A stretch of DNA of 36,286 bases, taken from a virus. Taxonomy: Duplodnaviria > Caudoviricetes. The notes beneath the pieces were generated by a model that worked only from the letters and a program-made list of their open reading frames with translations, ran no database searches and was not told the DNA's origin. The DNA lies in IMG/VR virus record IMGVR_UViG_3300032303_000779, positions 1 through 36,286 of that record; one strand, written 5' to 3'. Made by a program: the position numbers and the translations under genes. This document shows, piece by piece, positions 1 through 36,286 of this stretch. How positions within the stretch are numbered: position 1 is the stretch's first letter; each line of letters starts with the position of its first letter.

Positions 1-40
1 AGTAGAGCCAGTTCCTCCTACAACACCTGGAACACCTGGA
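1..40. repeat. 40-bp terminal overlap (identical to 36247-36286); circular assembly junction
   Basis: AGTAGAGCCAGTTCCTCCTACAACACCTGGAACACCTGGA occurs at both ends, and the reading frame from 33389 continues in phase across the join. Confidence 0.92.
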
Positions 41-859
41 ACACCTACAACACCTGGAACACCTGGAACAACACCTGGAACTACACCTGGAACAACACCT
101 GGAACAACACCTGGAACTACACCTGGAACAACACCTGGAACTACACCTGGAACAACACCTGGAACTACACCTGGAACAACACCTGGAAGTCAAGTTCCTA
201 CACCGGGACAACCAACAACGCCGCCAACTGTAACACCGCCTGGGGCAGAAAATCCAGTTAAAATTACTGATTATTCTAAACCATACGAAGGTCCTTACAG
301 CAATGAAAGTGTGTTAGAGCGTTATATGAATAGCACAATCAGCTATGGTGATATTGCCAAGTTGGTTGCTGCTGGCCTGGTATTGCCAAGCATTTTGGGT
401 CTAATAGCACCACAAGGTCCGGGCACACCAGGCAAGAAATCATATGGACCTATTCCTCCCACCGAATGGGGCAATGCTGCCGCGTTAAACAATCCTGGGC
501 AAAATCCTGGATGGTTTACAGGTGAGTTTCCTACTCCGGCTTATCAAACAACCAATCCATACCAGGCACAATTTTATTGGGGTCAGCAACCATATGTTGG
601 GCCAAACCAACCTAGAGAGACTTACAATCAAATCCCAGCAGCGGCTGGCACACAAGGATTTGGCCTACAAGCAGGACCAGGTCAGTATGATGTCAATCAA
701 CTGTTAAATCAGATCAATCGAACAGCCTTGAATCCTAATTTTATAGGATACAATCAATATCCAACACAGGGCTATGTGGCTCCAGGATATCCACCGCCAG
801 CAGTGGCCGGGCCTGTAATGCCTACACCACCTGTAGCACTAACCGGCTTTGGGCCTTAA
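1..859 (+). CDS. C-terminal part of the ~1238-aa Pro/Thr-rich probable internal virion/ejection protein that starts at 33389
   Basis: Frame from position 2 is open (VEPVPPTTPGTPG...) into the tracked 311..859 ORF and is in phase with 33389..36246 after removing the 40-nt overlap; hydrophobic segment IAKLVAAGLVLPSILGLIA. Confidence 0.8.
   Translation, partial: VEPVPPTTPGTPGTPTTPGTPGTTPGTTPGTTPGTTPGTTPGTTPGTTPGTTPGTTPGTTPGSQVPTPGQPTTPPTVTPPGAENPVKITDYSKPYEGPYSNESVLERYMNSTISYGDIAKLVAAGLVLPSILGLIAPQGPGTPGKKSYGPIPPTEWGNAAALNNPGQNPGWFTGEFPTPAYQTTNPYQAQFYWGQQPYVGPNQPRETYNQIPAAAGTQGFGLQAGPGQYDVNQLLNQINRTALNPNFIGYNQYPTQGYVAPGYPPPAVAGPVMPTPPVALTGFGP
19..187 (+). repeat. Coding tandem repeat of 9/12-bp units encoding TPG/TTPG
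   Basis: Repeated ACACCTGGA / ACAACACCTGGA / ACTACACCTGGA. Confidence 0.95.
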
Positions 860-884
860 CCTACTAGGAATACAATGAAAGCAA

Positions 885-890
885 TAAATA
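885..890 (+). promoter_or_regulatory. T4-late-type promoter box TAAATA ahead of the ejection-protein operon
   Basis: Intergenic ATAAATA, then AGGAG (904-908) and ATG 916; no -35. Confidence 0.7.
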
Positions 891-915
891 TACAATACAC
901 ATCAGGAGAAACAAA

Positions 916-1677
916 ATGAGTTTTGGAAAATCAGGCGGAGGCGGGACCACAGTTCAAACCCCGGAAATGACTCCTGAACAACGGGCACAAATTCAAGCAC
1001 AAACTGAATTTTTTACAAAAACCATTGCTCCCACATACAAACAAGCAGTTGGTGGTGCCACTGACCTTTACAATTTAGGTGCCCCAGGCGTGACCAATGC
1101 CGCACAGAACCTGGCTGGCACAGCAGGTAAAGCACAACAAACATTAGGATCAACTGGTGAAAGTGCCCTACGCACAGGTATCTCAGGATTAGAAAGCCTA
1201 TTCAGTCCTGACTACGAACAGCGTCAAATTCAAACAGCATTACTACCAGCACAACAACAGTATCAACAAAACTTGGCCAATCAAATGGCACAGTATGGTG
1301 GTGCAGGTAATTTAGGAAGTGCTAGAAGTGCTTTGGCTCAAACAGCCTTGGCTGGCCAAACACAAGCGGCACAACAAAAGGCTGCGGCAGATATACAAGC
1401 ACAAATTGCCGCACAACGCTTGTCAGCTGGTCAAAGCCTAGCTGGCCTAGGCCAAGGTGGTATTGGTCAAGCTCTTGGTGCAGCCGCTCAAGGTGTAAGT
1501 GCCGCTATGACTCCACAGCAATTGTATAACCAATACGCTAGTGTAATTTTTGGAACTCCAGCCGCTAGTTACACACCTGACTTCCGTGGCACAATCGGTA
1601 GCACAACTACTACAAATCAAACGGGTTACCAAGCTGGTATGGGCGGTGCATACGGTAGTAAACCGTTCTCATTCTAA
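916..1677 (+). CDS. Probable DNA ejection/pilot (internal virion) protein
   Basis: Gly/Ala/Gln-rich 253 aa, N-terminus MSFGKSGGGGTT, position after the tail genes as in podoviruses; good RBS. Confidence 0.65.
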   Translation: MSFGKSGGGGTTVQTPEMTPEQRAQIQAQTEFFTKTIAPTYKQAVGGATDLYNLGAPGVTNAAQNLAGTAGKAQQTLGSTGESALRTGISGLESLFSPDYEQRQIQTALLPAQQQYQQNLANQMAQYGGAGNLGSARSALAQTALAGQTQAAQQKAAADIQAQIAAQRLSAGQSLAGLGQGGIGQALGAAAQGVSAAMTPQQLYNQYASVIFGTPAASYTPDFRGTIGSTTTTNQTGYQAGMGGAYGSKPFSF

Positions 1678-1686
1678 GGTAGAACA

Positions 1687-3903
1687 ATGTTAGACATATA
1701 TGGAAATGATATTGGTGGTGAAGGTGGCTATGAAACTGAAGAAGAAAAGCGTCGTCGTCTAGCCGCTGAAGCAGAAGCTACCAACCAACCAGTTACACAA
1801 AAAATAACTTACAATCCAGATGGCACTCAAAAGATGACCATCACTGGTAGTCCTCAGGCTTTAAGTCCGGCTAACCCTAATACACCCACCGTGTCTGGTC
1901 CGGTAAATCCACTTGACACATTTGGCCGTATGCAACAGGTTGAATCAGGCAATCGTGATTACAATGCTCAAGGACAACCAATTACAAGTCCAGCCGGTGC
2001 CATGTTTCGCAATCAAGTTATGCCATCAACAGCAGCCAATCCTGGTTATGGAATACGGCCAGCTGCTGCACAAACTCCAGAAGAATACAATCGTGTAGGT
2101 CAAGAATACTATCAAGCCATGCTTCGACAGTTTGGCGGGGATCAGCAAAAAGCAGTTGCGGCCTACAACGCAGGCCCAGGCCGTGTGCAACAAAATATGC
2201 AGGCCAATGCTGGCCAATTGAATCCACAACAGTTACCACCAGAAACACAAGGTTACTTGCAAAAAGTTCTAGGTCCTGTGTTAAATGCTGTGGTTCCAAG
2301 TGCTCAAGCAGCACCTGCACCACAACCAGCATCCGCAGTTCCTGTTAATGCTCAAGCACAAGCACAAGCAATTCAAAATAAACAAGGTTTAAACTTTGCT
2401 AATGCAAATATACCTGCACCACAACCTGCACCTGCCGCACCAGTTAGTCCAACAGCACCGCCAGCGGCTGCTGCTCCAGCAGAACCGATGGGTCCAAGCA
2501 CTACAGCAATGACTCCTGAAGCATGGGCAGAGCGTTTGAACACTGCTCGTCAGGATGATCGTCAATTGGCCAGTTTGGCCTATGATCCAAATATTCCACA
2601 GTATATTCGTGAAGAAGCTTCAGCTGACATGTATAAACGCTTACAGGCTGCTAAAAATGAAACTGCTACCAAAGCCAAACTACAAGAAGGTATTGCGTCA
2701 GGTGACATGAGCGAAATCAACCGCATTATGAAACGCGGCGGCGAAGAAGGTTCATGGATGAAATATCTATTTTTTGGATTACTTGGTAGTGATGCTGCTA
2801 AAATAGAGCGTCAAAAACTATTTCCAGATGAAGGATCAAAAGTTGTTGCCTTTACAGGAGTGGATGGCCGCCAAGGTCTAATCAGACAGGCCGCTGATGG
2901 CAGTCCATTATTTGGACGCTTTGATGATGGCAAAGAATTAGATTCTAAACAGTTGATTCAATATGCAACTGGTGGTGGTAAACTTGGCAAAGGCACAAGC
3001 CTAAGCAGTGAAGTGTATGTTGATACAACTACAGGAAATCGCTATCGTTCAGGATATGACACAGCTGGCAATACAGCCTTGGTCAATGTGCAAGGCGGTG
3101 CTCCGTTCCGTGGCAATCCTAAAAATCTTGAAGTGCAAAGTATTGGCACTGCAATTAGCAAAGCTGAAGGCACCAAAGCAGTTGAATTGCGTTATACAGG
3201 TCCTATTGCTTACACCAAAGCAGGTGCTGATGCCGCCGGAGAATTCAACTTTAAACATGGCACAAACATTGGTTACCAAAGTCAACAACCAGGTGCTCCA
3301 TTGGTAGATTTGAATACTGGTCGTCCTGTTGTTCCTAACTCAAACGGCACAATTACAGCTACCACAGGTGGTGGTGCCGCTGTTACAGCAGGTGCTCCTG
3401 GTGCACCCGGCACAGCTGGCAAAACTCCTGCTGACATTCAAGGCGAATTTGATGCCAATAAAAAGATTCGCGAAAGTGTTGCTAAGAATCAACAGCAAGT
3501 TAAACAGATATATCCATTTATCAACACCATTAAAGGCCTTATTGACAAGAGCACAAGTAGTGGTATTGGTAGTTTGGTTGACGAAGCTGGCAACTGGTTT
3601 GGTTACAGCACTGATGGTGCTGATGCTATTGCCGCTATTAAACCTTTGGCCAATAAAGTATTAATGGGTGTTGAACGCTTTGAAGGACCACAAAGTGATT
3701 TGGATGTTAAATCATACAAAGAAGCCGCTGGTCAGTTGGCTGATCCAAAAGTTCCTGCAAGTCAAAAGCAAGCCGCATTCAATACCATTATCGAAATCAT
3801 GAAGCGTAATGCTCCTGAGCTTGATTGGTCTGCTTATGGCACAGCTGAAGACAACAGTCCGGCTGCCAAAGCCAAGCGTGAATTAGAAAAACGGAAGAAA
3901 TAA
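1687..3903 (+). CDS. Internal virion protein with a lytic transglycosylase (SLT/lysozyme-like) domain
   Basis: Motifs QVESG, QVMPSTA, AAYNAGPG and ETQGYLQKV in the N-terminal third. Confidence 0.8.
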   Translation: MLDIYGNDIGGEGGYETEEEKRRRLAAEAEATNQPVTQKITYNPDGTQKMTITGSPQALSPANPNTPTVSGPVNPLDTFGRMQQVESGNRDYNAQGQPITSPAGAMFRNQVMPSTAANPGYGIRPAAAQTPEEYNRVGQEYYQAMLRQFGGDQQKAVAAYNAGPGRVQQNMQANAGQLNPQQLPPETQGYLQKVLGPVLNAVVPSAQAAPAPQPASAVPVNAQAQAQAIQNKQGLNFANANIPAPQPAPAAPVSPTAPPAAAAPAEPMGPSTTAMTPEAWAERLNTARQDDRQLASLAYDPNIPQYIREEASADMYKRLQAAKNETATKAKLQEGIASGDMSEINRIMKRGGEEGSWMKYLFFGLLGSDAAKIERQKLFPDEGSKVVAFTGVDGRQGLIRQAADGSPLFGRFDDGKELDSKQLIQYATGGGKLGKGTSLSSEVYVDTTTGNRYRSGYDTAGNTALVNVQGGAPFRGNPKNLEVQSIGTAISKAEGTKAVELRYTGPIAYTKAGADAAGEFNFKHGTNIGYQSQQPGAPLVDLNTGRPVVPNSNGTITATTGGGAAVTAGAPGAPGTAGKTPADIQGEFDANKKIRESVAKNQQQVKQIYPFINTIKGLIDKSTSSGIGSLVDEAGNWFGYSTDGADAIAAIKPLANKVLMGVERFEGPQSDLDVKSYKEAAGQLADPKVPASQKQAAFNTIIEIMKRNAPELDWSAYGTAEDNSPAAKAKRELEKRKK

Positions 3904-4859
3904 TGGCATTAGACTACAGCAAGTTATCTACTGAAGAATTAGAAGCCATTGCCAATGATGATTACAGTCGTTTATCCACTGAAACATTGCAAGCATTGGC
4001 CGATGATCCAGATGCCGCAAAAGCACCTGGTGCAAAAAAGACTCCAGCTAGTTTAACACCACAAGGTGTTGATGTGGGTGATGCTGCCATGTTGGCCACA
4101 CCAGCACTGGCCGCTATAGCTCCTGCTATTCCGGGTGCTGTTAGTAGTGCATATCAAACAGGCAAGGCATTGGCAACTCCTGCGGCCAGTGCCGCACTTG
4201 ATTTAGGCAAGGCTTATTTGACCAAACCTGGAGCATTAGTAACTGATGTTGCTATGGGTGCTATGGGATTACCTCCTCCAACAGCAGCTGAACAAAGTTA
4301 TAAAGGTGTGCAAGGCACATATCAGACAGCAAGAGATTTGTTATCAAAACAGGGTCAATTTGCTCCCAAAGCCGCTCCGGTTGCTCCGGGACCATTTGCC
4401 GCAGCCGCAGAATTTCCAACAGCAGAACAAATTGCAAGAAATGCTACTTATACAGAAATGGCCGCAAGAGATGCCGCTGGAGCTGTTGCCAAACCAGGTG
4501 TAATGAGTCGTGTGGCACAAGGTGCAGGATCCTTATTATCCGGTGCCGGCACACTATTAAACAATGCTACACCAGCTATGAGCTTTGCTATGCCATATCA
4601 AATGGCTGGTGCCGAAATGGAAAAGATTCGGGCCAACCCCACAGCACCAGAATATGCTACCAATCCGTATGCACAAATGACTCGTGGTGAAGCCACAACA
4701 CAAGGAGCGGCCGGTGCTGCTAATCGTCGTCAAGCAATAGCCAGACAACAGTATGGTGGATTGACAGAAGCAGAACAACGCATATTAGAAAGCGATAGAT
4801 TAAATATGGCCATACGCTTACGGGCCGCAAAGAAAGTATTAGGACCAGTAGCACCTTAA
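3903..4859 (+). CDS. Ala-rich probable ejection/internal virion protein
   Basis: Coupled to the upstream gene (TAATG); N-terminal DYSKLSTEEL/DYSRLSTETL duplication. Confidence 0.55.
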   Translation: MALDYSKLSTEELEAIANDDYSRLSTETLQALADDPDAAKAPGAKKTPASLTPQGVDVGDAAMLATPALAAIAPAIPGAVSSAYQTGKALATPAASAALDLGKAYLTKPGALVTDVAMGAMGLPPPTAAEQSYKGVQGTYQTARDLLSKQGQFAPKAAPVAPGPFAAAAEFPTAEQIARNATYTEMAARDAAGAVAKPGVMSRVAQGAGSLLSGAGTLLNNATPAMSFAMPYQMAGAEMEKIRANPTAPEYATNPYAQMTRGEATTQGAAGAANRRQAIARQQYGGLTEAEQRILESDRLNMAIRLRAAKKVLGPVAP

Positions 4860-4868
4860 GGAAACCAA

Positions 4869-5306
4869 ATGACAGATCTAATCGAAAAATTAACCCAAGT
4901 ATTCAACACCAATTTTGTAACTTACTACAGAACACATGTAGCACATGTGAATATTGTGGGTCGTAATTTTTATAGTGATCACAAATTGCTACAAAAAATT
5001 TACGAGGAATTGCAAGGCGATATCGACACAATCGCCGAGTTTTTACGCACTTTAGCCGCAGTTATGCCAGAAAGTCTGGACACAGTTGTAAAAGGTTCTA
5101 AAATCGATGACGAGGATGTGTTTGGCACAGCAGATGAATTGTTGGCTGGTGTTTTAACTGATTTGACCACATTGATTGCCTTATACCGCGACCTAGAAGA
5201 AGAAGCTGACATGGCCGGCGAAGATCAAATTGCCAATTTTGCACAAGACCGCGAAACAGTGTTCAACAGATTTAGTTGGATGTTGCGTAGCACACTAGAA
5301 GAGTAA
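4869..5306 (+). CDS. dps: Dps-like ferritin-superfamily protein
   Basis: HVNIVGRNFYSDHKLLQKIYEE...DTIAEFLR and C-terminal WMLRS match the Dps signature; 145 aa; RBS AAGGA. Confidence 0.85.
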   Translation: MTDLIEKLTQVFNTNFVTYYRTHVAHVNIVGRNFYSDHKLLQKIYEELQGDIDTIAEFLRTLAAVMPESLDTVVKGSKIDDEDVFGTADELLAGVLTDLTTLIALYRDLEEEADMAGEDQIANFAQDRETVFNRFSWMLRSTLEE

Positions 5307-5405: not shown

Positions 5406-6110
5406 TTAATCAGTCTTTCCAGAATAAATTTTCATTTCAGGTGCTGATCCTACAACTACAATTTGCGGTTGATGATCTTGATAATAGTAATCACCGGCTG
5501 CAGGAGCAGTAAAGCGTCCATCTGCTACCACTGTTTGCGGATTCACTGATTGATCAACCACAAATGTAGCAGTGCTCATACGCTTGTAAGCAATGCTGCC
5601 ACGCACACTATAACCCGCTGACGCATGTAGATGCATAAAAGCGGCCTGATCTCCACGCATGGTTGTGCTACAAATGATTTTGATATCACAGGCCTTGGCC
5701 CATGTTTCCCACATGCGTATCATCTGTGCCAACAACACAATTCTAGCACGAGCACTCAACTTTAAATTCACATGTGCTATACGCACAGCCACCATTTCCT
5801 CTGAGCTCCAAGGAGCATATTGTCCACGCATGGCCCAGGTATAGGCCAAGATCTGTTGTGTTTCGTTGTGTGTGGCCACACTGATCAATTCCTTACGGGG
5901 ATTGTAAAATTGATTTACCGTGGCCAACAACACATTGCGACTGTATTCAACAGGATCATTTTCAAATATTTGATCTGTTTCTAGTCCAAAATGACTTTGT
6001 GCCATGGCTGTGATCTCTTCGGTATCAGGTCCAGCAGCTGGACGCCAACGCCAAGGATCTGATTCAGTGTGTGCATACTTTTCTAAACCGGTGTCTTTGG
6101 CAGTTTTCAT
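5406..6110 (-). CDS. Probable GNAT-fold acetyltransferase-like protein
   Basis: Pattern ...VRIAHVNLKLSARAR...WETWAK...IICSTT...AAFMHLHASAGY resembles GNAT motifs A/B; degenerate. Confidence 0.5.
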   Translation of the reverse strand: MKTAKDTGLEKYAHTESDPWRWRPAAGPDTEEITAMAQSHFGLETDQIFENDPVEYSRNVLLATVNQFYNPRKELISVATHNETQQILAYTWAMRGQYAPWSSEEMVAVRIAHVNLKLSARARIVLLAQMIRMWETWAKACDIKIICSTTMRGDQAAFMHLHASAGYSVRGSIAYKRMSTATFVVDQSVNPQTVVADGRFTAPAAGDYYYQDHQPQIVVVGSAPEMKIYSGKTD

Positions 6111-6526
6111 ACCGTTTTCTCCGCGGTTGAATATGGTTCAGGTAGCAGGCCTTTGCGATCACGATAGCGTTTTTGTGCTGGACTACGCCAACCAGCAGCC
6201 ACAGCCTCACCTTGCATACGAGCATGTTGTTCACGGGTCACAATCATGGTGTTTTCTACAGTCCAAGGTGTTGACCAGTCCCGGCGTGTCATACAATAAC
6301 AGCCCTTTTCACGACCACGGTTCTCCCATTGCCCTGACTCAGCCCACATGTGTTTCCAATCCGCAAATGAAATAGTCCAACCTTCTTCTCTATACTGTGC
6401 TTGGTTCTTTTGCTGTATCCAAACTCTATATCGTTTGTGTTCCACAGGATCTGGTCCTGTGATCCACGCACCTGGCTTGGGTCCTCTTGTGTGTGGGCGA
6501 GGTATTCCTTTGGTTGACTTAGGCAT
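6107..6526 (-). CDS. HNH/His-Me finger-like endonuclease-family protein
   Basis: W..SGQWENRGR..GCYCMTR.D...PWTVEN.MIVT resembles phage beta-beta-alpha nuclease-like proteins; start set at MPKSTKG (6526), which overlaps the upstream stop. Confidence 0.5.
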   Translation of the reverse strand: MPKSTKGIPRPHTRGPKPGAWITGPDPVEHKRYRVWIQQKNQAQYREEGWTISFADWKHMWAESGQWENRGREKGCYCMTRRDWSTPWTVENTMIVTREQHARMQGEAVAAGWRSPAQKRYRDRKGLLPEPYSTAEKTV

Positions 6527-6911
6527 CGTATCCGTTCCCCGCATCAAATAATTGTCCAAATGTGGTTGATGGCTTGCGAAATGAATCGGTATTGGCTTGA
6601 ACCAATCTGGCCAATTCTGCATCATCCACGCAACGATACACTATGCGTGCCCGGCCATCTGCACTTACCACAGGCACACCCTTGGCGGTTGTTTTGTTTG
6701 TGCGTCGGAGTCCTTCATACACACCATAAGGATATGGGTCTGTGACCACATGATTCCATCCTGATCGTTTAAAATTTTTATATGCAGGATCCACTGTCAT
6801 TTCGTGTGTGGTTCCGTCATCTAGGCTTTGAAAGGTCAATCGCCAGAAACGCCCACCATTTAATTGGCTATGCCCTTCTTCACAATTGACCAAGATATAC
6901 TGATTGTCCAT
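6519..6911 (-). CDS. Hypothetical protein
   Basis: 130-aa ORF with AGGAG RBS (6921-6925) and TAAATA box (6938-6943) upstream on the minus strand. Confidence 0.8.
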   Translation of the reverse strand: MDNQYILVNCEEGHSQLNGGRFWRLTFQSLDDGTTHEMTVDPAYKNFKRSGWNHVVTDPYPYGVYEGLRRTNKTTAKGVPVVSADGRARIVYRCVDDAELARLVQANTDSFRKPSTTFGQLFDAGNGYDA

Positions 6912-6970: not shown

Positions 6971-7144
6971 TCATCTTAACTTGGGATTACGCCGTTGTAG
7001 TTCTGTGGCAAACATAGTGGCAAGTCCGCGGTCAGTGAGATTCATCACAGCCCATTTGAGATAATCCTCTGGGATATCCTTAATGAAGAAACCTTTATAC
7101 TTGCCAAATGGCATCTTAGTAAGTTCGTATTCTTGATATCTCAT
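6971..7144 (-). CDS. Small MPFGKYKG-motif protein (DUF3820-like)
   Basis: MPFGKYKG...DIPEDYLKW signature; likely start MRYQEY at 7144. Confidence 0.75.
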   Translation of the reverse strand: MRYQEYELTKMPFGKYKGFFIKDIPEDYLKWAVMNLTDRGLATMFATELQRRNPKLR

Positions 7145-7159: not shown

Positions 7160-7630
7160 TATTTGAGATCTCTTGCGAGATCTATTGAGCAACTTCGTAG
7201 CTCAATGCGTTCTTTTAACTAATTAAGAGATCATTTGACAGATAGATTGATCAGAGTGCCACTATCCGAAGTAGTGGCGTATCTTTGACGAGTGAGTCGA
7301 TCCGTCGTTACCAGCAGGTGTTTAGTAAGTATTCGAAGTATTGCTTGGGCTCAACGCTTACCCAGACCTGCCGCGACTTTTAAGAGAACTTTTCAGTGGC
7401 TGTTTTGTTCTCATAGCAATAGTAATCTTCTAACCATTCCGATTACGCAAATCGTCATCCGTTCGTCAGGATTCTCAACTAATGGGACTATTCTTTCAGG
7501 CTACTCTTCAGTAGTGCGTAAAAGCCACCCGACAGATACGAGCGATTTGGTTGCCGTCACACATCAGAACGGATTCACCAGCACAATAGATATTCGGCGT
7601 GCCAACCTTGTCTGTAACTACATCTCCAAC
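7160..7630 (-). ncRNA. Large structured non-coding element (candidate ncRNA and/or replication origin)
   Basis: About ten stems, long-range and pseudoknot pairings, C(UUCG)G and GCAA tetraloops on the minus strand, TAAATA box directly upstream (7634-7639), no credible ORF. Confidence 0.65.
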
Positions 7631-7633
7631 ACA

Positions 7634-7639
7634 TATTTA
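7634..7639 (-). promoter_or_regulatory. TAAATA box at the 5' end of the large structured element
   Basis: CTAAATA on the minus strand, just downstream of a terminator. Confidence 0.6.
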
Positions 7640-7798: not shown

Positions 7799-8083
7799 TT
7801 AGTCTCGCGGCGGTATAGTGTAGAATTGTGGCGTCATTTCACCACGCAATCCACGGCAACAGGTCAACAACAGGGCACGATAATACCATTCTTCACTGAC
7901 CGGATTGGGTTCCAAACTGCTCCAGGTAAGTGCAGTTTCCCATTCGATCAGGATCTCATCCAAGATGTTTGGTTCAGTGTCACGAATAATCTGTTCTGCT
8001 GTGTTTAATACAACAGCCAATTCTTCAGGGCTACAAAAACGATGTGGCACAGGGCCTATCTGTTGTAAATTAACGACAATCAT
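7799..8083 (-). CDS. Hypothetical protein, probably leaderless
   Basis: 94-aa ORF; TAAATA (8089-8094, minus) 5 nt before ATG, no SD. Confidence 0.7.
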   Translation of the reverse strand: MIVVNLQQIGPVPHRFCSPEELAVVLNTAEQIIRDTEPNILDEILIEWETALTWSSLEPNPVSEEWYYRALLLTCCRGLRGEMTPQFYTIPPRD

Positions 8084-8098: not shown

Positions 8099-8127
8099 TT
8101 GACACAGCCAAAGCCCTGTGTTATACT
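8099..8127 (+). promoter_or_regulatory. Consensus sigma70 promoter
   Basis: TTGACA(8099-8104)-17 nt-TATACT(8122-8127) with extended -10 TG. Confidence 0.85.
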
Positions 8128-8418: not shown

Positions 8419-8670
8419 ATGGCCAGACCAAAAATATCAGCAATAGAATCAACTAGAGTAGGCATGTTTGAATGGACAGTGGCCGAAACACCGGCCTACT
8501 GGGCAGTGCTACGCTATGAACAGCCCATCTACATAGTCAAGCAACACTGGTTGCAGGATAGAAAAAACTATCCCAGGACCACATTTAGCAACGCGGCACA
8601 TGCACAGAACTTGGCTGACAAGCTGAATGGCCTGTTTGAGACATCAGCCTATACCATAAGGAAATTATGA
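8419..8670 (+). CDS. Hypothetical protein MARPK...FSNAAHAQNLADKLN
   Basis: 83 aa from ATG 8419, just after the TAAATA box. Confidence 0.75.
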   Translation: MARPKISAIESTRVGMFEWTVAETPAYWAVLRYEQPIYIVKQHWLQDRKNYPRTTFSNAAHAQNLADKLNGLFETSAYTIRKL

Positions 8671-28673: not shown

Positions 28674-28675
28674 AC

Positions 28676-29512
28676 ATGCCATTTTTTCACAATCAAACTG
28701 GTATATTTCAAGTTCCTGTCAATGTGACAGGTGGCACTATAACCACAGCAAACATAGATGGCGTGCTGTATAGAATTCATACATTTACCAGCAATGGCAC
28801 ATTGAGTGTAAATCCAGCCTATCAACTCAACACCAACAATGCCAGCATTGCCATGGAATACCTAATAATAGCAGGTGGTGGCAATGGTGGATCCGTAGAA
28901 GGTGGTGGTGGTGGTGGTGGGCAAGTGTTGACCGGCAGTAGAAATTTTATCTATCGCAATTTTACTGTAACAGTCAGCAATGGCAGTAGCAACAGTAGTG
29001 TAACTGGTGTGTCTACTAATTTGGTGGCCTTAGAAGGCGGCGATGGTGGCACAACAGGTGCGAATGGCCAAAATGGTGGCAGTGGCGGTGGCGGTGGATC
29101 TACTGTTGGTGCAACCACAGGCGGAACCGCAACTGGTGGTGGCAACAACGGTGGCGGCAGTTCAAACAGTGTCACTGGTGGTGGTGGTGGTGGTTGGACC
29201 ACAGCAGGACAAAACGCTCCTTCTACCAGTCAGGCAGGCAATGGCGGCACCGGCATATTGATCAATTTCAACGGCACTCCAACCTATTATGGTTCAGGCG
29301 GTGGTGGTGGACGCGGGGCCACCAGCACTACAGGATTTGGCGTTGGTGGCCCCGGTGCCGGCAACGGAGCCACTCGCCAGGTAGTGGCCACTCAGCCTAG
29401 CCAATATGTGGGAGCAGGTGGTGGTGGTGGCAGTGATGCTGGCGGTCAATATGGGCCTAGTCAAGGCGGTTCAGGCGTAGTTATGTTTCGCTATCCGCTA
29501 ATTATTGTATAA
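28676..29512 (+). CDS. Glycine-rich adhesin-like tip protein
   Basis: YRIHTFTSNGT, EYLIIAGGG, polyglycine runs, GGSGVVMFRY; start set at ATG 28676. Confidence 0.7.
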   Translation: MPFFHNQTGIFQVPVNVTGGTITTANIDGVLYRIHTFTSNGTLSVNPAYQLNTNNASIAMEYLIIAGGGNGGSVEGGGGGGGQVLTGSRNFIYRNFTVTVSNGSSNSSVTGVSTNLVALEGGDGGTTGANGQNGGSGGGGGSTVGATTGGTATGGGNNGGGSSNSVTGGGGGGWTTAGQNAPSTSQAGNGGTGILINFNGTPTYYGSGGGGGRGATSTTGFGVGGPGAGNGATRQVVATQPSQYVGAGGGGGSDAGGQYGPSQGGSGVVMFRYPLIIV

Positions 29513-29524
29513 CAAGGAACAAAC

Positions 29525-31186
29525 ATGGCACAAACATTTACCGAAGTTAAAACACCCTTTGTCAACATGAGTTTTACTCCTGATGTGCCCAGTGCGGCCC
29601 TGGCTGGCACAGAATACAACGCAGGTCAAAATGTAGAAACTGACACACGCGGTATTAGATCAGTGCTGGGTGATGAAACAATATTAAATGCTATTCAAGG
29701 CACACCAATTTATATCACAGGTGGCTATAGAGATCAAGATGTGTGGTGGTATATTGTTGCTACCAACACAGGTCGTTGGTGGAGAATAAATGAATCTGGC
29801 ACAGCAGTAGAATGTGGTCCAAATTTAACACCATTGTCAGGTTACAGCGACACTACCAGTATTACTGAAGCTTGGTCGGGCACTACCTTGTTGATCAACG
29901 ATGGTCTACATCCCCCTATGTATTTGCTGGGTGATGCCAGTGAGTTTGAACAATACAGCAATGATCCTGCTGGTCCTGGACCTATATGGAATTACAATCC
30001 TGATTGGTCAGCACTTACCGCACAATTCATGCGTATCTACAACAGTCCCAATGTGGGCAGTTTGTTAATTGCTGGTAATCTAAGAAGCGTTGATGCCAGC
30101 ACAAGTCAAGTCGACAATTATCCAACCACAGTGCGTTGGAGTCGAGTATTTCCTGCACTAGGAGCAGTGCCACAAAGTTGGCAACCAACCCTAAACGATG
30201 TAGCCAACGAATTAGAAGTGCCTGTGCGTGGTCCTGTGGTAGATGGCTTTCCTGCCAATGGTAATTTTTATGTGTGCAGTTATTGGGACACAGTGGTTTT
30301 TAGTCCATTGAATTTTACTTCAACCACAGCACCTGTGTTGGGTGTGCGTTTGATGAATCAAGGTCGCGGTCTTTTAAATCAAAACTGCTGGGCCAATGCC
30401 GACAACACAGTGTATGGCCTAGATGCCAGAGACATTTGGGTGTTTGATGGCAACAACTTCAAGAGCTTGGGCAATCAGCGTGTAAGAAACTATTTCTTTG
30501 ACAACCTGAATCCAGAATATAGTGATCGAGTGTTTGTGGTCAACAACACCAGACGCAATCAAATTGAAATTTATTATCCAGACATGACATCAACTGGTTG
30601 GTGCAACAAGATGTTGAGTTATCGTTATGATTTGGACATATTCAATCCGCCTAGAGATGTCAGTTCGGCCAGTCATGCCACAGAAGGTCCACGGTATGTA
30701 ACATTGCCTGACAGCACAGAAGCATTTGACAAAGCATCAAGAACTATTGTTTACAGTCGTGGTGTGGCCAATACTGCTATTGTGCAAAAAGACACAGGAA
30801 CCACATTTTTAAACAATCAACCAATTGTGAGTCAGTTCCGCAGAGACAACATTAGTCTTGGATTAAAATACAGTCAACAGGCCCTGTTACATCGCATCCT
30901 ACCAGAAGTGGTCAATATTGATCAAGCAGGCATACCCATTGAAGGTGTGGGTAATATCACAGTCCGCATAGGCGGAACCAACAGTGTGGGAACCACAGTT
31001 GAAGATCAACCCAATGGATTTCAAACACCCGTCACTATGCCCGTTGCTACACAAAATCCCTGGACACAGATCAATCAAAACGCACACAGAGTTGTCACAA
31101 TAGAACTCAACAACTCTAGCACCACAGACACTTGGCAATGCACTGCTGTCAACTGGCAGTTTACTCCAACAGAGGATTCTAGATAA
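29525..31186 (+). CDS. Tail nozzle / tubular protein B (P22 gp10-like)
   Basis: 553 aa beta-propeller-like, TVRWS motif, podovirus synteny. Confidence 0.7.
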   Translation: MAQTFTEVKTPFVNMSFTPDVPSAALAGTEYNAGQNVETDTRGIRSVLGDETILNAIQGTPIYITGGYRDQDVWWYIVATNTGRWWRINESGTAVECGPNLTPLSGYSDTTSITEAWSGTTLLINDGLHPPMYLLGDASEFEQYSNDPAGPGPIWNYNPDWSALTAQFMRIYNSPNVGSLLIAGNLRSVDASTSQVDNYPTTVRWSRVFPALGAVPQSWQPTLNDVANELEVPVRGPVVDGFPANGNFYVCSYWDTVVFSPLNFTSTTAPVLGVRLMNQGRGLLNQNCWANADNTVYGLDARDIWVFDGNNFKSLGNQRVRNYFFDNLNPEYSDRVFVVNNTRRNQIEIYYPDMTSTGWCNKMLSYRYDLDIFNPPRDVSSASHATEGPRYVTLPDSTEAFDKASRTIVYSRGVANTAIVQKDTGTTFLNNQPIVSQFRRDNISLGLKYSQQALLHRILPEVVNIDQAGIPIEGVGNITVRIGGTNSVGTTVEDQPNGFQTPVTMPVATQNPWTQINQNAHRVVTIELNNSSTTDTWQCTAVNWQFTPTEDSR

Positions 31187-32947
31187 ATGGGAACATTTGC
31201 TGTTACTAACGACAATGAGGTAATGTCTGCGGTAAATTATCTCTTAAGCAATCAAGGACAAGGCACTGGCAATGGCAATGTAGTAATTCCAGGTAATGTG
31301 TTAGTAGCCAATACTGCCACAGGTGCTGTGACTCAATATGGCAATACCGATGTGTTGTTTTATAAAAATCAATTTATTAATTTAAGATATTCAAACAATG
31401 CCACCGGCACTGCTGGGTTTAGTCCCAGCAGTGACAATTACAATTATTTTGGAGTTTATAATAGTTCTACATCAACTCCATCTACCAATCCGGCAGCCTA
31501 TCAGTGGACACAGGTCAGTCCTGGGTTTAATTCTGCTTCAAGTAGAACACTGTATTACAGTTCAATAGGTGGTCGTCAAATTGTATTTGCGGCTGCTAGT
31601 AGTCCGCCTAGTAGTGCGTTTGTTGTGAGCACTGCCAATGTGGCCATAGATCTTGACATTGTAACAACTGCCAACGGAACACCGGGCAGTCGTGGTCCTA
31701 TTCCAATGGGTTATGTGATTACCACAGCCAATCCTGGGAACGCTTCAACTTCAACCCTGACCGGTTGGTTTGAAGCCAGCAGAACTGCCAACACACCTCC
31801 AATTGGAACCGGACTAACACCAGTAGATGGGGACACTGCTTATTTTGCGTATCCTACTACCGGTGCCAGTAGCACATTTACCTACAACGGTAGCACCTGG
31901 ATCAGTGCAGTAGGACAAGTTGTGTCAGGTAATACCTTGGTGGCCAACACAGTTACAGGCACTAGTCTGGCACCCAGCACCATAACTGGTGACAAGATCA
32001 CTGGCAATACCATAACTGGCAACTTGATTGTGGCCAGCACAATTACCGGCAATTTGATAGCAGCCAACACCATAACTGGCAACACTATCCAGTCCAACAC
32101 CATTACCAGCAACAACATTGCAGCCAACACCATTGTGGCCAACAACATAGCTACTGGCACGCTGACCACCAATCTGTTTACAGCCAACACCATTCAAGGC
32201 AATGTTATTTTGGCCGGCACTATCACAGCAGAACAGTTGGCAGCCAACGTGCTCATAGCCAACACAGTAATATCAACTGGTGCCACAATTGGTAATTTCA
32301 ACAGTTCAGGTTTTTGGTTGCAAGGTTCAACAGGCAATGCTCGCTTTGGCAACACAGTCAGCATTGGTAATCAACTTACCGTGGGCAACAATGCCACCAT
32401 AGGTGGTAATTTAACAGTGACAGGTTTGATCAGTGGCGGCGGATTAAATTCCAACACAGTATCAACCAACACAGTAGTGCCATTAAGCATCAGTAGTGGT
32501 GCGGGCGTGACCACTGAATCTAGTCAAATATTTTCAAACTTGGCACAAAATACTATTGTTAGTTCTAATTTGACATTGGATTTTACCACAACAGAAAACA
32601 ATCAACCTTTGTTTGTGTTTGCTGGCGTTCAAGCTGGCGTTCAATTTACAACCATTTCTGGTAGTGTGGATGTAACTGGATTTTTCTATCTACGCAGAAC
32701 AAATCTCAGCACTGGAGTTATAACTTCTTTGTTTGATCAGATATTTGACGTAAACAATGTGACCACAGCAGATGGTAGCACAGCATTCTTTTATCCAACC
32801 TGGACCGGAGTGGCTGACACAGTTCCTGCTGCAGGCACCTATAGATATAGCATTGCTTTTCAATATGGAAAGACTGGCACCACCAGTGGATCTACTATCT
32901 TTTATTTCTTAGGAAGAACCTGGTTGGTTCAAACACTCAAACGATGA
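31187..32947 (+). CDS. Tail spike/fibre with 10-aa (NTITGNLIAA-like) repeats
   Basis: Beta-helix-type repeats in the middle; followed by a chaperone gene. Confidence 0.65.
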   Translation: MGTFAVTNDNEVMSAVNYLLSNQGQGTGNGNVVIPGNVLVANTATGAVTQYGNTDVLFYKNQFINLRYSNNATGTAGFSPSSDNYNYFGVYNSSTSTPSTNPAAYQWTQVSPGFNSASSRTLYYSSIGGRQIVFAAASSPPSSAFVVSTANVAIDLDIVTTANGTPGSRGPIPMGYVITTANPGNASTSTLTGWFEASRTANTPPIGTGLTPVDGDTAYFAYPTTGASSTFTYNGSTWISAVGQVVSGNTLVANTVTGTSLAPSTITGDKITGNTITGNLIVASTITGNLIAANTITGNTIQSNTITSNNIAANTIVANNIATGTLTTNLFTANTIQGNVILAGTITAEQLAANVLIANTVISTGATIGNFNSSGFWLQGSTGNARFGNTVSIGNQLTVGNNATIGGNLTVTGLISGGGLNSNTVSTNTVVPLSISSGAGVTTESSQIFSNLAQNTIVSSNLTLDFTTTENNQPLFVFAGVQAGVQFTTISGSVDVTGFFYLRRTNLSTGVITSLFDQIFDVNNVTTADGSTAFFYPTWTGVADTVPAAGTYRYSIAFQYGKTGTTSGSTIFYFLGRTWLVQTLKR

Positions 32948-33369
32948 CCTACACTATCTATGATCCGGCCACTGGCCAAATACTCAGTGTGTTGACCACC
33001 CATGATTTGTTGCAAGCGGAAACAAATCTTGCTGACAAGAGTTATATTGCCGGAGAATATTCTGGCCAACACTATTATATTGAATCAGGCCAAGCAGTTG
33101 AAAAGGCCGAGAAACCCAGTAGATCACATGTATTTGATTACTCTACCAAGACATGGCAATTGGATCAGGTGCACAGTGAGGCACAGGCCAGACGACAAAG
33201 AGATTCAGAATTGTCTGTTGTGGATCGTGTAAATCCTGTTTGGTATGCCAGCCTGACTGCGGATCAACAGGCCGACCTTGTGGCTTATAGACAACAACTG
33301 TTGGCAGTGCCTCAACAGGCTGGCTTCCCAACTGCGGTCGTTTGGCCAGCTAAACCCACATGGTTATAA
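32944..33369 (+). CDS. Tail fibre assembly chaperone
   Basis: AYRQQLLAVPQQAGFPTAVVWPAKP C-terminal signature. Confidence 0.85.
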   Translation: MTYTIYDPATGQILSVLTTHDLLQAETNLADKSYIAGEYSGQHYYIESGQAVEKAEKPSRSHVFDYSTKTWQLDQVHSEAQARRQRDSELSVVDRVNPVWYASLTADQQADLVAYRQQLLAVPQQAGFPTAVVWPAKPTWL

Positions 33370-33377
33370 GGAACCGA

Positions 33378-33383
33378 TAAATA
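33378..33383 (+). promoter_or_regulatory. TAAATA box
   Basis: ATAAATA 5 nt before ATG 33389. Confidence 0.65.
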
Positions 33384-33388
33384 TTACT

Positions 33389-36286
33389 ATGGCCTTAACA
33401 ATTCCAAAAACTTTCTCAGGAACACCTGCCAGTGTCAAAAGCCAGGTAGAATCACTTCTTGGCAAGGCCACTACGCCAGCTGAAGTCAACGCAATAACCC
33501 TAGCGGCACGCAGTAGCAATGCCAAATTTGACAACGCTGTGTTGGTAGCCGCTAACAATAGAATAGCCGCAGCCAAGCCAGCTACACCTGCCAAACCAGC
33601 TACGCCTGCAACGCCTGCCACGCCTGCCAAACCAGCTACGCCTACAACGCCTGCAAATTTGTTTAAACCACCGGATCCCAACACCACAATCAAGAATATC
33701 ATGACTGGCAAAGGTGGATCAGATACCATAACAGATCCAGCCACAGGCAACAAATACAACCTAGTGCCCGAGTCACCTACTACAGCCACTTGGTATGTAA
33801 GCAGGCCAGGTGCCACTACAGCAGATCCAGTCAATGCCAGCACAGGACAGGTTCTGCAGACAGGTGGCACTACTTTGGCCGCCCTGACCAAAAATCGTCA
33901 GAGTTGGTATCAGGCCAATCCTACACAAACAGCCAAAGACGCTGCCGCACAAGCAGAAGCCAACAGATTGGCCAACGAAAAAGCTGCCGCTGAAAAGGCT
34001 GCCGCTGAAAAGGCTGCCGCGGTGCCTAAACCACCACCGCCATTGACCAAAGAACAACAGGCTCGTGCCGCTGAATTACAAAATCAGTTGATGCAGAGCA
34101 AGACTCAAGCAGAATTAGACGCTGTGGTCAAACAGGCTGCAGATCAAAATTTGCCATTGAATCAGGGCTTTGTAGAACGTGCCCAAAATATAGTAAAACA
34201 AACCGAAGCCAGGATTGCGGCTGCGGCTTTGCAGGTCAAAACACAAGATTATGAAACTCAAATTCAAAATGCAACTTCACAAAAACAAATTGATGATTTG
34301 ATAAGCAAAGCTCAAGCTGATGGTGTCACTGTGAATCCCAGTGCAATTCAACGAGCACAGGGTGTTATTCAACAACAACAGGCCACTGCTGATTTTGTAT
34401 CCAAATTAGGGCCAGCTACTGGATTTGTCAACACATTTGGTCCAGGCGGTCAAGAGTTTGTGAGCCGAGCAGATGATCCCATCACAGGTGAAAAAGGTGG
34501 ATGGTTTCAAGTGGTGGGCAACAATCTACAACGAGTTGGCACAGATGGTCGTCCTAGTGGTGCTGTTATACCTGCAGATGAGTTTAACAAACAACAACAA
34601 ACTCAACAGACCAATTACAGCATTTATACCACACAGCAACAACAGGCTGAGGCTGCCGCAAAACTAGCAGAGCAAGTCAAAACATTTGAAGCCAATTTGC
34701 CTCAACCTGGCACTGCTAAATTTGCCAATTTGCTCAACAACCGATTCAATGTAAATGGACCCAATGGTGCTGATTATCAACCAATTCCAGGAGCTGGTGG
34801 CTGGGCAGTAGCCCAAAAAGGAACCAATTCATATACACCTTTGAACAATCCCACAGCACCAGCTCAAACATTGCAGGATATTCAACAAGTTTTTAATGCC
34901 AAATTTGAAGCAGAAGATGCCGCACAAAAAGCGGCTAGGGCACGCCTTGGTGCTGAACAAAAAGCAGCAATGGAACATCCATACATGGACATGTTGGCTG
35001 ACTTTGACAAGTTGGTCAACAAGACTGTTGGTTGGAAAACCATTGCTACCATTGCTGGCAGTGCTGCCTTTGGTCCATGGGGTGCCGCCCTGGCCAATGC
35101 TGCCGCAGGTGCAGTTGCTGGTGAAAGCATAGAAGACATAGCCAAAAGTGCCGCATTGGCCTATGCCATGGCCTATGGCACAGAAGCCTTGGGTGAGGCC
35201 TTGAATGAAACTGTGGCAGCCGGTGTTGAATCAGGTGATATTGATCTTGGTTCAGCTACCGATTATGCTGATGGTGTAGATCAAATACAAACAACTGTTT
35301 CAGATGTTCCTCCTGTATCAGAATTACCAACAGATATAACTGCTCCTGTTGTTCCAGAAGCACCTGTATATGATTATTCAACTCCATTTGAACCAACACC
35401 TGTTGAGCCAACTGTGCCTACAGAAATACCAACTGATACATATACACCTGTTAGTGAAGGTCCACAAGTTCCTGGATCTACACCACAACAACCATACAAT
35501 TTACAAAGCAATGGCATAAGCGATTTGCCAGAAGGAACTGTTATTGGCAATGATGTAGTTATGGCCAATGGTAAAACAGTGCCATTGGATGATTATTTGT
35601 CAGCTATTGAAAGTAATCAACCAATCAGCATTGATGGTAACATGACCACCGGTGGAACTCCAAATGTCGAAGTTCTTCCAGCTCCAGATATTCCAGTTCC
35701 TGAAGCTCCTGTTAGTCCAGCAATGCCAGGTGAAGCACCTCCGCCTGGTTATTTAGGTGACATAAGCAATATTCCAGCTAATGAATTTTCGTCTATGACA
35801 CCAGCCGAGGTTGCAAGTTTAACTTCAGAGCAATTGGCAACATTGAGTCCAGAACAATTGGCTAATATTCCAACTGGTGGTTTAACTTCTGATGAATTAC
35901 TTACTTTGGCTGCCGTTGGCGTTCCGGCCGCTGTTGTTGCTGTTGCTGTTGCAGGCGGTGGTGGAGCGGCAGCCGCTCCAGCTGTGCCCCCTCCAGCTCC
36001 GGTGCCACCAGTTACTACACCACCTGTAGTTGAACCAGTGCCACCTGTAACTACACCACCTGTAGTTGAACCAGTGCCACCTGTAACTACACCACCTGTA
36101 GTTGAACCAGTGCCGCCTGTAACTACACCTCCTGTAGTTGAACCAGTGCCACCTGTAACTACACCACCTGTAACTACACCACCTGTAGTAGAGCCAGTTC
36201 CTCCTACACCACCTGTAACTACACCACCTGTAACTACACCACCTGTAGTAGAGCCAGTTCCTCCTACAACACCTGGAACACCTGGA
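33389..36286 (+). CDS. N-terminal part of the ~1238-aa probable internal virion/ejection protein (continues at 1..859; missed by ORF track)
   Basis: Hand translation from MALTIPKTFSG is open to the window end; PAT/PAK and EKAAA repeats, Gln-rich coils, hydrophobic hairpin (IATIAGSAAFGPWGAALANAAAGAVAG), acidic Pro-rich stalk. Confidence 0.85.
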   Translation, partial: MALTIPKTFSGTPASVKSQVESLLGKATTPAEVNAITLAARSSNAKFDNAVLVAANNRIAAAKPATPAKPATPATPATPAKPATPTTPANLFKPPDPNTTIKNIMTGKGGSDTITDPATGNKYNLVPESPTTATWYVSRPGATTADPVNASTGQVLQTGGTTLAALTKNRQSWYQANPTQTAKDAAAQAEANRLANEKAAAEKAAAEKAAAVPKPPPPLTKEQQARAAELQNQLMQSKTQAELDAVVKQAADQNLPLNQGFVERAQNIVKQTEARIAAAALQVKTQDYETQIQNATSQKQIDDLISKAQADGVTVNPSAIQRAQGVIQQQQATADFVSKLGPATGFVNTFGPGGQEFVSRADDPITGEKGGWFQVVGNNLQRVGTDGRPSGAVIPADEFNKQQQTQQTNYSIYTTQQQQAEAAAKLAEQVKTFEANLPQPGTAKFANLLNNRFNVNGPNGADYQPIPGAGGWAVAQKGTNSYTPLNNPTAPAQTLQDIQQVFNAKFEAEDAAQKAARARLGAEQKAAMEHPYMDMLADFDKLVNKTVGWKTIATIAGSAAFGPWGAALANAAAGAVAGESIEDIAKSAALAYAMAYGTEALGEALNETVAAGVESGDIDLGSATDYADGVDQIQTTVSDVPPVSELPTDITAPVVPEAPVYDYSTPFEPTPVEPTVPTEIPTDTYTPVSEGPQVPGSTPQQPYNLQSNGISDLPEGTVIGNDVVMANGKTVPLDDYLSAIESNQPISIDGNMTTGGTPNVEVLPAPDIPVPEAPVSPAMPGEAPPPGYLGDISNIPANEFSSMTPAEVASLTSEQLATLSPEQLANIPTGGLTSDELLTLAAVGVPAAVVAVAVAGGGGAAAAPAVPPPAPVPPVTTPPVVEPVPPVTTPPVVEPVPPVTTPPVVEPVPPVTTPPVVEPVPPVTTPPVTTPPVVEPVPPTPPVTTPPVTTPPVVEPVPPTTPGTPG
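36005..36270 (+). repeat. Coding tandem repeat, 36-bp unit encoding PPVTTPPVVEPV
   Basis: About four near-perfect units followed by variant units. Confidence 0.92.

What the first reader, a model, noticed from the sequence alone, without database searches (positions are those of the whole stretch)
1..36286. Virion-complete but replication-, transcription- and lysis-less genome: candidate satellite of a large T4-like helper phage
Seen: an apparently closed circle in which nearly all DNA encodes head, tail, fibres and ejection proteins. The only non-structural block (about 5.4-8.8 kb) holds small ORFs with no recognisable polymerase, primase, helicase, initiator, integrase, repressor, sigma/RNAP, holin or endolysin. 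Operons are fronted by T4-late-type boxes. Established: T4 late promoters (TATAAATA, no -35) need phage gp55/gp33 and the gp45 clamp; P4, PICIs and PLEs replicate themselves and take virion parts from the helper. Inference: this element does the reverse, building its own podovirus particle while borrowing late transcription, replication and lysis from a co-infecting myophage.
Basis: partly seen in the sequence, partly recalled or inferred. Interest (0 to 1): 0.92.

Follow-up and report, generated by a model that had tools for sequence, protein, structure and literature searches.

The report
Podovirus satellite of T4-related jumbo phages
This complete 36-kb bacterial virus encodes its own particle but no recognisable DNA polymerase, sigma factor or lysis enzyme, and it carries the same promoter box as T4-related jumbo phages, so it likely lives as a parasite of those giant phages, much as virophages parasitise giant viruses of eukaryotes.

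Summary
The observation largely holds. The window is a complete podovirus genome; its capsid protein has 559 matches in IMG/VR. It has no recognisable polymerase, primase, helicase, integrase, sigma, holin or endolysin. The box is TAAATA, not T4's TATAAATA. It fronts operons in all 18 genomes examined (176 sites against 55 in shuffles) and is not enriched in two outgroup relatives, one of which is a conventional phage with its own lysis genes. The likely helpers are 290-540 kb T4-related jumbo phages. They share a small core gene with the window, encode a gp55-type sigma, and one shows the same box and spacing. New here: ORF 6519-6911 ends in a tail like that jumbo's polymerase tail, a predicted clamp-binding motif. 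A covarying ~450-nt structured RNA sits in the block where relatives have a primase-like gene. Corrections: 9 of 18 members encode a primase(-like) gene, 10 a holin-like gene, and the window has host sigma-70 promoters. Dependence on a helper is inferred, not shown. Mulch/Flayer satellites and virophages are precedents.

The parts
13665..15269 (+). Terminase large subunit
   Evidence: phrog_2 E 3e-23; PF03237
15745..18021 (+). Portal (SU10 type), TAAATA at 15717
   Evidence: PF23899 E 3e-47; box in 15 of 18 relatives
18383..19558 (+). Probable scaffold protein (inferred from position)
   Evidence: core in 17 of 18; 40% to MW202484; no family hit
19592..20749 (+). Major capsid protein (SU10 type)
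   Evidence: PF17236 E 2e-34; 559 relatives
20841..33369 (+). Neck, tail, fibre and fibre-chaperone genes; TAAATA at 20829, 6 nt before the first ATG
   Evidence: PHROG/Pfam hits for 21434, 26702, 28676, 29525, 31187, 32944; GNGSQLTG-type repeats
33389..36286 (+). First part of a Pro/Thr-rich probable virion/ejection gene that continues across the junction into 1-859; TAAATA at 33378, 5 nt before ATG
   Evidence: frame open across junction; contiguous in G001 and G005
1..859 (+). End of the junction-spanning gene; 40-nt terminal overlap at 1-40
916..4859 (+). Probable ejection-protein operon, including an SLT-domain protein (1687-3903); TAAATA at 885
   Evidence: PF01464; box in 17 of 18
4869..5306 (+). 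Dps/ferritin-like protein, in 18 of 18 family members and in jumbo G023; not found in outgroup MW202484
5406..6110 (-). GNAT-fold protein, also in the outgroup phage, so not satellite-specific
   Evidence: Atlas structure TM about 0.8 to GNAT clusters; MW202484 E 6e-26
6107..6526 (-). Small protein with a His-Me/HNH-like pattern (label from recall); homologues recur at several positions in some relatives
   Evidence: phrog_16521 unknown function; cluster 22 in 9 of 18
6519..6911 (-). 130-aa protein ending TTFGQLFD, a predicted binder of the helper's sliding clamp; TAAATA at 6943
   Evidence: tail motif in 59 of 65 aligned homologues; G023 polymerase ends NNTFGNLFTFE; clamp fold of the adjacent G023 gene; no PDB relative
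6971..7144 (-). 57-aa DUF3820/ExoX-C-terminal-like domain
   Evidence: PF12843; DnaQ/ExoX C-terminal matches
7165..7634 (-). Structured non-coding RNA with a pseudoknot, behind TAAATA at 7639; occupies the block that holds a PolA-like primase in G003 and G017
   Evidence: 84% identity to G002 with single-base indels; 20 of 53 pairs with two-sided change; no Rfam match over it
7799..8083 (-). Unknown 94-aa ORF, TAAATA 5 nt before ATG; a further TAAATA at 7801
   Evidence: cluster 31 in 4 of 18
8099..8127 (+). Host sigma-70-type promoter (11 of 12 match) in front of 8158-8340
   Evidence: equivalent site in G001 and G002
8419..8670 (+). 83-aa homologue of a conserved gene of jumbo phages; confident model, no known fold
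   Evidence: pLDDT 93; no PDB match at E<=0.001
8808..9173 (+). Probable terminase small subunit-like protein (inferred); TAAGTA in place of the box in this genome
   Evidence: box 4-6 nt before ATG in 14 of 17 family copies; phrog_15261 unknown
9192..13661 (+). Small basic and low-complexity late ORFs plus two conserved genes (12607, 13392) shared with the outgroup; TAAATA at 9167 and 12552
   Evidence: no family assignment
15301..15684 (+). Signal-peptide-bearing moron-like ORF behind a sigma-70-type promoter at 15266-15294
   Evidence: singleton in the family

Best explanation
The window is the complete genome of a podovirus that encodes its own head, tail and DNA-packaging genes, fronts its operons with TAAATA boxes, and likely multiplies only in cells co-infected by a T4-related jumbo phage, whose gp55-type sigma factor would read those boxes, whose polymerase and sliding clamp would copy the DNA, and whose endolysin would release the progeny. 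Shown: gene content, box position and conservation, and the same box, sigma, clamp, loader and endolysin in a jumbo phage that shares genes with the family. Inferred step 1: after entry, host sigma-70 expresses only 8158-8340, 8419-8670 and the 15301 moron, and the genome waits. Inferred step 2: when the helper makes its late sigma, all virion operons and the 7.8-5.4 kb operon switch on; many transcripts would be leaderless because the box ends 4-6 nt before ATG. Inferred step 3: protein 6519-6911 docks on the helper's PCNA-type clamp through its FGQLF tail and brings clamp and polymerase to the satellite DNA, or competes them away from the helper. Inferred step 4, the weakest: the structured RNA at 7165-7634 serves as primer or origin RNA in place of the primase gene that G003 and G017 carry in the same block.
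For: Box: enriched upstream of genes in 18 of 18 genomes, p from 5e-4 to 4e-13; no conserved -35 in the flanking base counts. Fair control 176 against shuffle mean 54.9, maximum 80; antisense 30. 67 of 80 capsid loci enriched at p<0.01. Outgroups with the same virion module are not enriched: MW202484, capsid 57% identical, annotated with Cro, Erf, SSB, RusA and chitinase, 1 of 17; L217, capsid 60%, 1 of 12. Helper link: relatives of the 8419-8670 family include contigs of 290-543 kb and SCTP-2 near its gp43. 5 of 5 such large records encode a gp55-type sigma and a family B polymerase, and 4 of 5 a clamp loader. In the whole 331.6-kb record G023, 77 of 146 TAAATA lie upstream of genes (5.5 expected), peaking 5 nt before ATG as in the family. 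G023 also has Dps and holin-like homologues of family genes, an endolysin, and a PCNA-fold gene next to its polymerase (Foldseek E 7e-11). Tail motif: 59 of 65 homologues of 6519-6911, and 6 of the 9 motif-bearing genes among 712 family genes are this protein or the unrelated protein in the same slot, against 1 of 513 jumbo ORFs. T4 gp55, gp33 and gp43 bind the clamp through similar C-terminal motifs (PMC2988020, passages). No phrog_181 endolysin in 21 of 21 family records.
Against: No experiment, co-abundance or transcript data show dependence. Shared genes with G023 are distant (23-48% identity), so no specific helper is identified, and codon usage does not single it out (r 0.68 against 0.63 for the outgroup). 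7 of 18 members have Prim-Pol plus SF3 helicase, 2 a PolA-like primase, and 10 a holin-like gene, so the family is less helper-dependent than the window suggests. The tail pattern was written after seeing these tails; only 2 of 6 jumbo polymerase tails fit it (G023 and SCTP-2), and 7 of 375 G023 ORFs fit it. The five jumbo sigmas end without an evident clamp-binding tail. phrog_181 also missed jumbo G021, so that search alone does not show absence of lysis genes. Several conserved small ORFs (9356, 10908, 7799, 8158) remain unassigned and were not folded. The RNA's whole-length folding z-score is only -1.24, and covariation rests on 7 related sequences with a structure partly drawn by hand from them.
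Confidence: 0.72

Rival explanations
1. Autonomous lytic phage: a host sigma factor or a still unrecognised phage activator reads TAAATA, the host replisome copies the DNA from an RNA-primed or small-initiator origin, and lysis uses an unknown single gene.
For: Host sigma-70 promoters are present. Nine relatives carry their own primase-type module. Core ORFs 9356-9757 and 10908-11225 have no assigned function.
Against: No sigma-like ORF in 18 genomes. The only jumbo-derived candidate regulator (8419-8670) is in 7 of 18 genomes while the box is in 18 of 18. Six family records with terminal repeats have no recognised endolysin, whereas the outgroup has one. Box sequence and 5-nt spacing equal those of a gp55-encoding jumbo phage.
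Confidence: 0.15
2. Facultative piggy-backing: the virus can persist or replicate slowly alone (as a plasmid-like element) but produces virions mainly when a jumbo phage supplies late sigma and lysis, and so acts as a defence element for the host population.
For: Mosaic of replication modules across the tree; sigma-70-driven early genes and a moron-like exported protein; universal Dps that could protect a waiting genome.
Against: No integrase, partition or repressor gene in the window. Only a 3.2-kb piece of the family was found in the scan of 185,579 species genomes. In the window the putative replication block itself lies behind TAAATA boxes.
Confidence: 0.1
3. Assembly artefact: a fragment closed falsely at a Pro/Thr repeat, with the replication and lysis module missing.
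For: The 40-nt overlap lies in a repeat and contigs of the holder run do not bridge it.
Against: The junction gene is contiguous with the same downstream gene in G001 and G005. Five relatives close at 33-38.5 kb. The longest of the 80 listed capsid relatives is 38.5 kb.
Confidence: 0.03

Closest known systems
Mulch and Flayer satellite phages of Streptomyces (MiniFlayer, MulchRoom; PMC10690885, parts 1-2 of 6 read plus passages)
   Same: Own capsid, portal and terminase; no primase homologue; lytic helper inferred to supply replication; MiniFlayer has no integrase.
   Different: 15-17 kb against 33-38 kb. Helpers are ~130-kb siphoviruses, not T4-related jumbo phages. 'Promoter' and 'sigma' do not occur in that paper's text, so use of helper late promoters was not described. 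Those systems are isolated; this one is sequence only.
Virophages Sputnik and mavirus (PMC6723459, passages)
   Same: Own virion; the giant helper's late promoter motif lies upstream of satellite genes; replication genes vary among members.
   Different: Eukaryotic hosts and an unrelated virion lineage (recalled); here a tailed phage and a bacterial RNA polymerase redirected by a phage sigma.
P4, PICI, PLE and cf-PICI satellites (as summarised in PMC10690885)
   Same: Dependence on a helper phage; Prim-Pol/SF3 helicase modules in 7 relatives resemble satellite replicases.
   Different: Those integrate, replicate by their own replicases and take virion parts (all, or tails) from the helper. The window has a full virion set, no integrase and no replicase.
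MW202484 (Podoviridae sp. ctfne034) and SU10-type podoviruses
   Same: Same terminase, portal, capsid and tail module, GNAT gene and neighbouring small genes; Pfam SU10 portal and capsid families.
   Different: MW202484 has Cro, Erf, SSB, RusA, a membrane protein and a chitinase, and no TAAATA enrichment; it lacks Dps and the 8419 gene.
T4 late transcription (gp55/gp33/gp45; PMC2988020 and PMC7892883, passages) and group 2.2 jumbo phages (PMC7824862, passages)
   Same: Single -10-like box without -35; C-terminal clamp-binding tails; candidate helpers have minimal sigma, family B polymerase, RFC loader, PCNA-type clamp and a MoxR/vWA-like pair.
   Different: The box is the 6-mer TAAATA with an (A/G)(C/A) preference before it, not TATAAATA; the window encodes none of these factors.

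Membership tests
Bacteriophage satellite virus (Mulch/Flayer kind) | Encodes own encapsidation machinery | tested here: met
   terminase, portal, capsid, tail genes
Bacteriophage satellite virus (Mulch/Flayer kind) | Lacks primase and replicase genes | tested here: met
   met for the window; not for 9 of 17 relatives
Bacteriophage satellite virus (Mulch/Flayer kind) | Cannot propagate without helper | not testable with these tools
   needs culture or co-infection data
Bacteriophage satellite virus (Mulch/Flayer kind) | Sequence kinship with MiniFlayer or MulchRoom | tested here: inconclusive
   capsid tblastn against 50,697 phage records returns only MW202484; whether the two satellites are in that collection was not checked
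P4/PICI/PLE satellites | Integrase and chromosomal residence | tested here: not met
   no integrase hit; no integrated copy seen among 2 genome hits
P4/PICI/PLE satellites | Borrowed capsid or tail | tested here: not met
   full virion gene set
gp55-dependent late promoter | Exact TATAAATA | tested here: not met
   0 copies in the window
gp55-dependent late promoter | TAAATA core upstream of late genes, no -35, same spacing as in a gp55-encoding phage | tested here: met
gp55-dependent late promoter | Transcription requires gp55-type sigma | not testable with these tools
   needs in vitro transcription or reporter assay
Sliding-clamp-binding motif | Conserved hydrophobic C-terminal motif resembling the cognate polymerase tail | tested here: met
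   59 of 65 homologues; G023 polymerase tail; pattern defined after the fact
Sliding-clamp-binding motif | Binds the clamp | not tested
   no complex model or assay
Known structured RNA families (Rfam 15; tRNA/tmRNA) | Covariance-model or ARAGORN match over 7165-7634 | tested here: not met
   only a weak tmRNA fragment hit outside it, E 0.31; ARAGORN 0 genes

The most novel reading that the evidence does not exclude
A large family of tailed 'bacterial virophages' that descend from an ordinary podovirus, rewired every operon to the late sigma of T4-related jumbo phages, and dropped the endolysin. In the window's lineage the primase has been replaced by a new ~450-nt structured primer RNA made from a helper late promoter, plus an adaptor that mimics the helper polymerase's clamp-binding tail.
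Probability: 0.3. Interest if true: 0.96.

Novelty: new variant of a known kind. Interest (0 to 1): 0.86.

Why it matters
A 2026 review lists undiscovered mobile elements parasitising jumbo phages as an open question (PMC13282480, passage), and another says it is unclear whether satellites become more common as helpers grow larger (PMC13359090, passages). This family has hundreds of sequenced members that would be counted as ordinary podoviruses. It gives a simple signature for finding such hidden satellites: helper-type late boxes without the sigma gene. It also offers directly testable parts: a promoter box, a clamp-binding tail and a new structured RNA. If dependence holds, lysis and abundance attributed to small phages in these habitats partly reflect parasitism on jumbo phages.

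Tried and rejected
Protein-complex prediction of the G023 clamp with the tail of 6519-6911 was not available, so binding is open. The wide structural search for the 8419-8670 model and a fold of 6519-6911 could not be run. Foldseek gave no match for 8419-8670, and the profile of 6519-6911 has no PDB relative. Sequence profiles did not recognise the jumbo clamp; only the structure did. Sequencing runs: one DNA holder, possibly the source sample, and no RNA holder listed; its contigs stop at the repeat. Codon usage did not discriminate. The 15301 ORF had no viral relative. ORF 7799 gave only 3 loci. One of 7 matches to the RNA motif (L226) was a chance hit in an unrelated coding gene and was dropped. 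The RNA profile found nothing in G023. Stop-codon recoding of 7192-7799 was rejected: mixed stop types by reading and single-base indels. Group I intron, tmRNA and RNase P were considered from recall and not supported. An archaeal TATA box was rejected because of Shine-Dalgarno motifs (AAGGAA) and the 5-nt spacing. Three look-ups of earlier findings returned nothing. Five literature searches for such a family and one for MiniFlayer listed no paper describing it; I saw listings and abstracts only, except where stated, and subscription journals and supplements were not searched.


Full report
Genome and completeness. The window is 36,286 nt, 46% GC, with a 40-nt end overlap, and is a virus record classed as having direct terminal repeats. 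The overlap lies in a Pro/Thr repeat and contigs of the one holder run stop there. The frame reads through the junction, and in G001 and G005 the same gene is internal and followed by the same next gene. The capsid protein has 559 confirmed matches in IMG/VR; the 80 listed lie on contigs of at most 38.5 kb. Of 20 long records examined, 5 have terminal repeats. I fetched 17 of those 20 in full. Fourteen gene clusters occur in 17-18 of the 18 genomes. At most some repeat units can be missing at the junction.

Gene content. PHROG and Pfam scans of 42 ORFs give terminase, SU10-type portal and capsid, tail and fibre proteins, an SLT-bearing large protein, Dps and a DUF3820 domain. NCBIfam on 24 window ORFs adds nothing. 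ORF 5406-6110 has a GNAT fold. No replication, integration, sigma or lysis family was found. Among relatives, 169 of 213 clusters absent from the window were scanned (150 against Pfam, 148 against PHROGs; 44 short singletons were left out). Seven genomes have Prim-Pol plus an SF3-type helicase and 10 have a weak holin-like gene. G003 and G017 have a 370-415 aa protein whose predicted structure resembles domains fused to D5/SF3 helicases, nearest Pfam lead DNA_pol_A; the name TV-Pol is recalled. None of these is detectable in the window. No scanned cluster was a stand-alone endolysin, replicative polymerase or sigma. A jumbo gp55 profile finds nothing in 4727 six-frame ORFs.

The box. TATAAATA is absent. 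TAAATA is the most enriched hexamer upstream of genes: 176 of 372 family sites, 10 of 17 in the window. Because upstream zones are AT-rich, I shuffled them: window 10 against 2.3 (maximum 7 of 500), family 176 against 54.9 (maximum 80); the next best hexamer of equal composition reaches 81 and overlaps the motif. Positions are conserved before the ejection operon (17 of 18), portal (15 of 18) and gene 20841 (14 of 17). 52 of 176 boxes end 4-6 nt before ATG and 75 end 17-26 nt before it. T4 late promoters are a single box about one helical turn upstream of the start, with no -35 (PMC2988020, passage); that five bases separate box and start in T4 is recalled. 67 of 80 capsid loci show the enrichment at p<0.01. 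Two outgroups do not: MW202484 and L217. The window also has two 11-of-12 sigma-70 sites, at 8099 (conserved in G001 and G002) and 15266; weaker sites are no more common than chance (7 against 8.1).

Candidate helper. ORF 8419-8670 belongs to a family of at least 2459 proteins. Its only hit among 50,697 phage records is jumbo phage SCTP-2, near gp43 (E 9e-3). A relative's copy retrieves contigs up to 543 kb. The five largest all encode a gp55-type sigma and a family B polymerase; four encode a clamp loader. In G023, 77 of 146 TAAATA are upstream of genes, with a peak of 16 at 5 nt. G023 shares Dps, the 8419 gene and the holin-like gene with the family at 23-48% identity and has an endolysin. 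The gene after its polymerase folds as PCNA (pLDDT 89.5, Foldseek E 7e-11). This matches the group 2.2 jumbo phages of PMC7824862 (passages). The low identities mean the true helper is not identified. The host is unknown: the two genome hits are a 3.2-kb contig in an Actinomycetota bin and an outgroup contig in a Dechloromonas bin.

Clamp-tail mimic. ORF 6519-6911 ends TTFGQLFD; 59 of 65 aligned homologues keep an [FY]xx[LIV]F tail. An unrelated protein in the same slot of three relatives has it too. G023's polymerase ends NNTFGNLFTFE and SCTP-2's SSKFHEIF; four other jumbo polymerases end in related but non-matching tails. Background is 1 of 513 ORFs in 20 jumbo loci and 7 of 375 in G023. The pattern was defined after seeing the tails, and binding was not modelled.

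Structured RNA. 7150-7800 is 84% identical to G002, against 65% for the neighbouring GNAT-containing block, with single-base indels. It lies behind TAAATA at 7639 on the minus strand. Homologues occur in G001, G002, G007 and four further records. RNAalifold gives 18 of 62 pairs with compensatory change. A hand-drawn 53-pair structure with a pseudoknot has 20 such pairs, 0 of 500 shuffles as high and at most 8 when slid; G-U variants point to the minus strand. Caveats: 7 related sequences, a structure taken partly from them, a whole-length z of -1.24, and two mutually exclusive helices near the 5' end. No Rfam family matches. Within the well-supported seven-member clade (98/100), four genomes have the RNA, two the PolA-like gene and one a 263-aa ORF in this block, never two together. 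That exchange is the only basis for a priming role, so this step is the weakest.

Verdict. The most economical reading is a satellite virus that evolved from an ordinary podovirus and depends on a T4-related jumbo phage for late transcription and lysis and, in the window's lineage, for replication (0.72). Satellites with their own virion are known from Streptomyces (PMC10690885, parts 1-2 and passages), and shared helper late promoters from virophages (PMC6723459, passages). I found no paper on this family or on gp55-promoter piracy, within a library that omits most subscription journals. It is a new variant of a known kind, with new parts and a clear route to testing.

Noticed in passing
window 5306-5408 (- strand): A TAAATA at 5408 at the end of the GNAT gene fronts a ~100-nt hairpin-rich segment running towards the Dps stop; 84% identical over 58 nt in G005 only. 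Possible small RNA or terminator.
   Followed up: partly
window 15266-15684: Moron-like exported protein behind a sigma-70 promoter between terminase and portal; no viral relative found. Other members hold a methylase, glycosyltransferase or endonuclease in this slot.
   Followed up: partly
window 8419-8670; L128:10001-10315: Conserved jumbo-phage gene of unknown function with a confident model (pLDDT 93) and no Foldseek match in PDB; present in 7 of 18 family genomes.
   Followed up: partly
L244:7708-8442: phrog_12062 ('unknown function') is a PCNA-fold sliding clamp of jumbo phages, with at least 7820 homologues.
   Followed up: yes
L082:5792-6046; L114:8917-9180; L221; L223: GroES/Cpn10 co-chaperonin after the GNAT gene in several relatives; absent from the window.
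   Followed up: no
G008, G009, G013, G015 (e.g. L100:5905-8823): A third kind of non-structural block (clusters 39, 46, 56, 72) with no recognised primase or RNA; clusters 56 and 72 end in LF-like tails and follow sigma-70 promoters in G008 and G013.
   Followed up: no
G008 (three copies), G006, G016: Homologues of the HNH-like ORF 6107-6526 are inserted between structural genes, like mobile homing endonucleases.
   Followed up: no
L114:5480-5750; G017 22600-23100; G005 34550-34850: Members with a protein in the RNA's block still have a TAAATA followed by 150-250 nt of hairpin-rich non-coding DNA before the gene; possible shorter origin RNAs.
   Followed up: no
window 22415-28673: Fibre proteins built of GNGSQLTG repeats with weak Chlorovirus glycoprotein repeat hits; whether they bind the cell or the helper virion, as in MiniFlayer, is open.
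   Followed up: no
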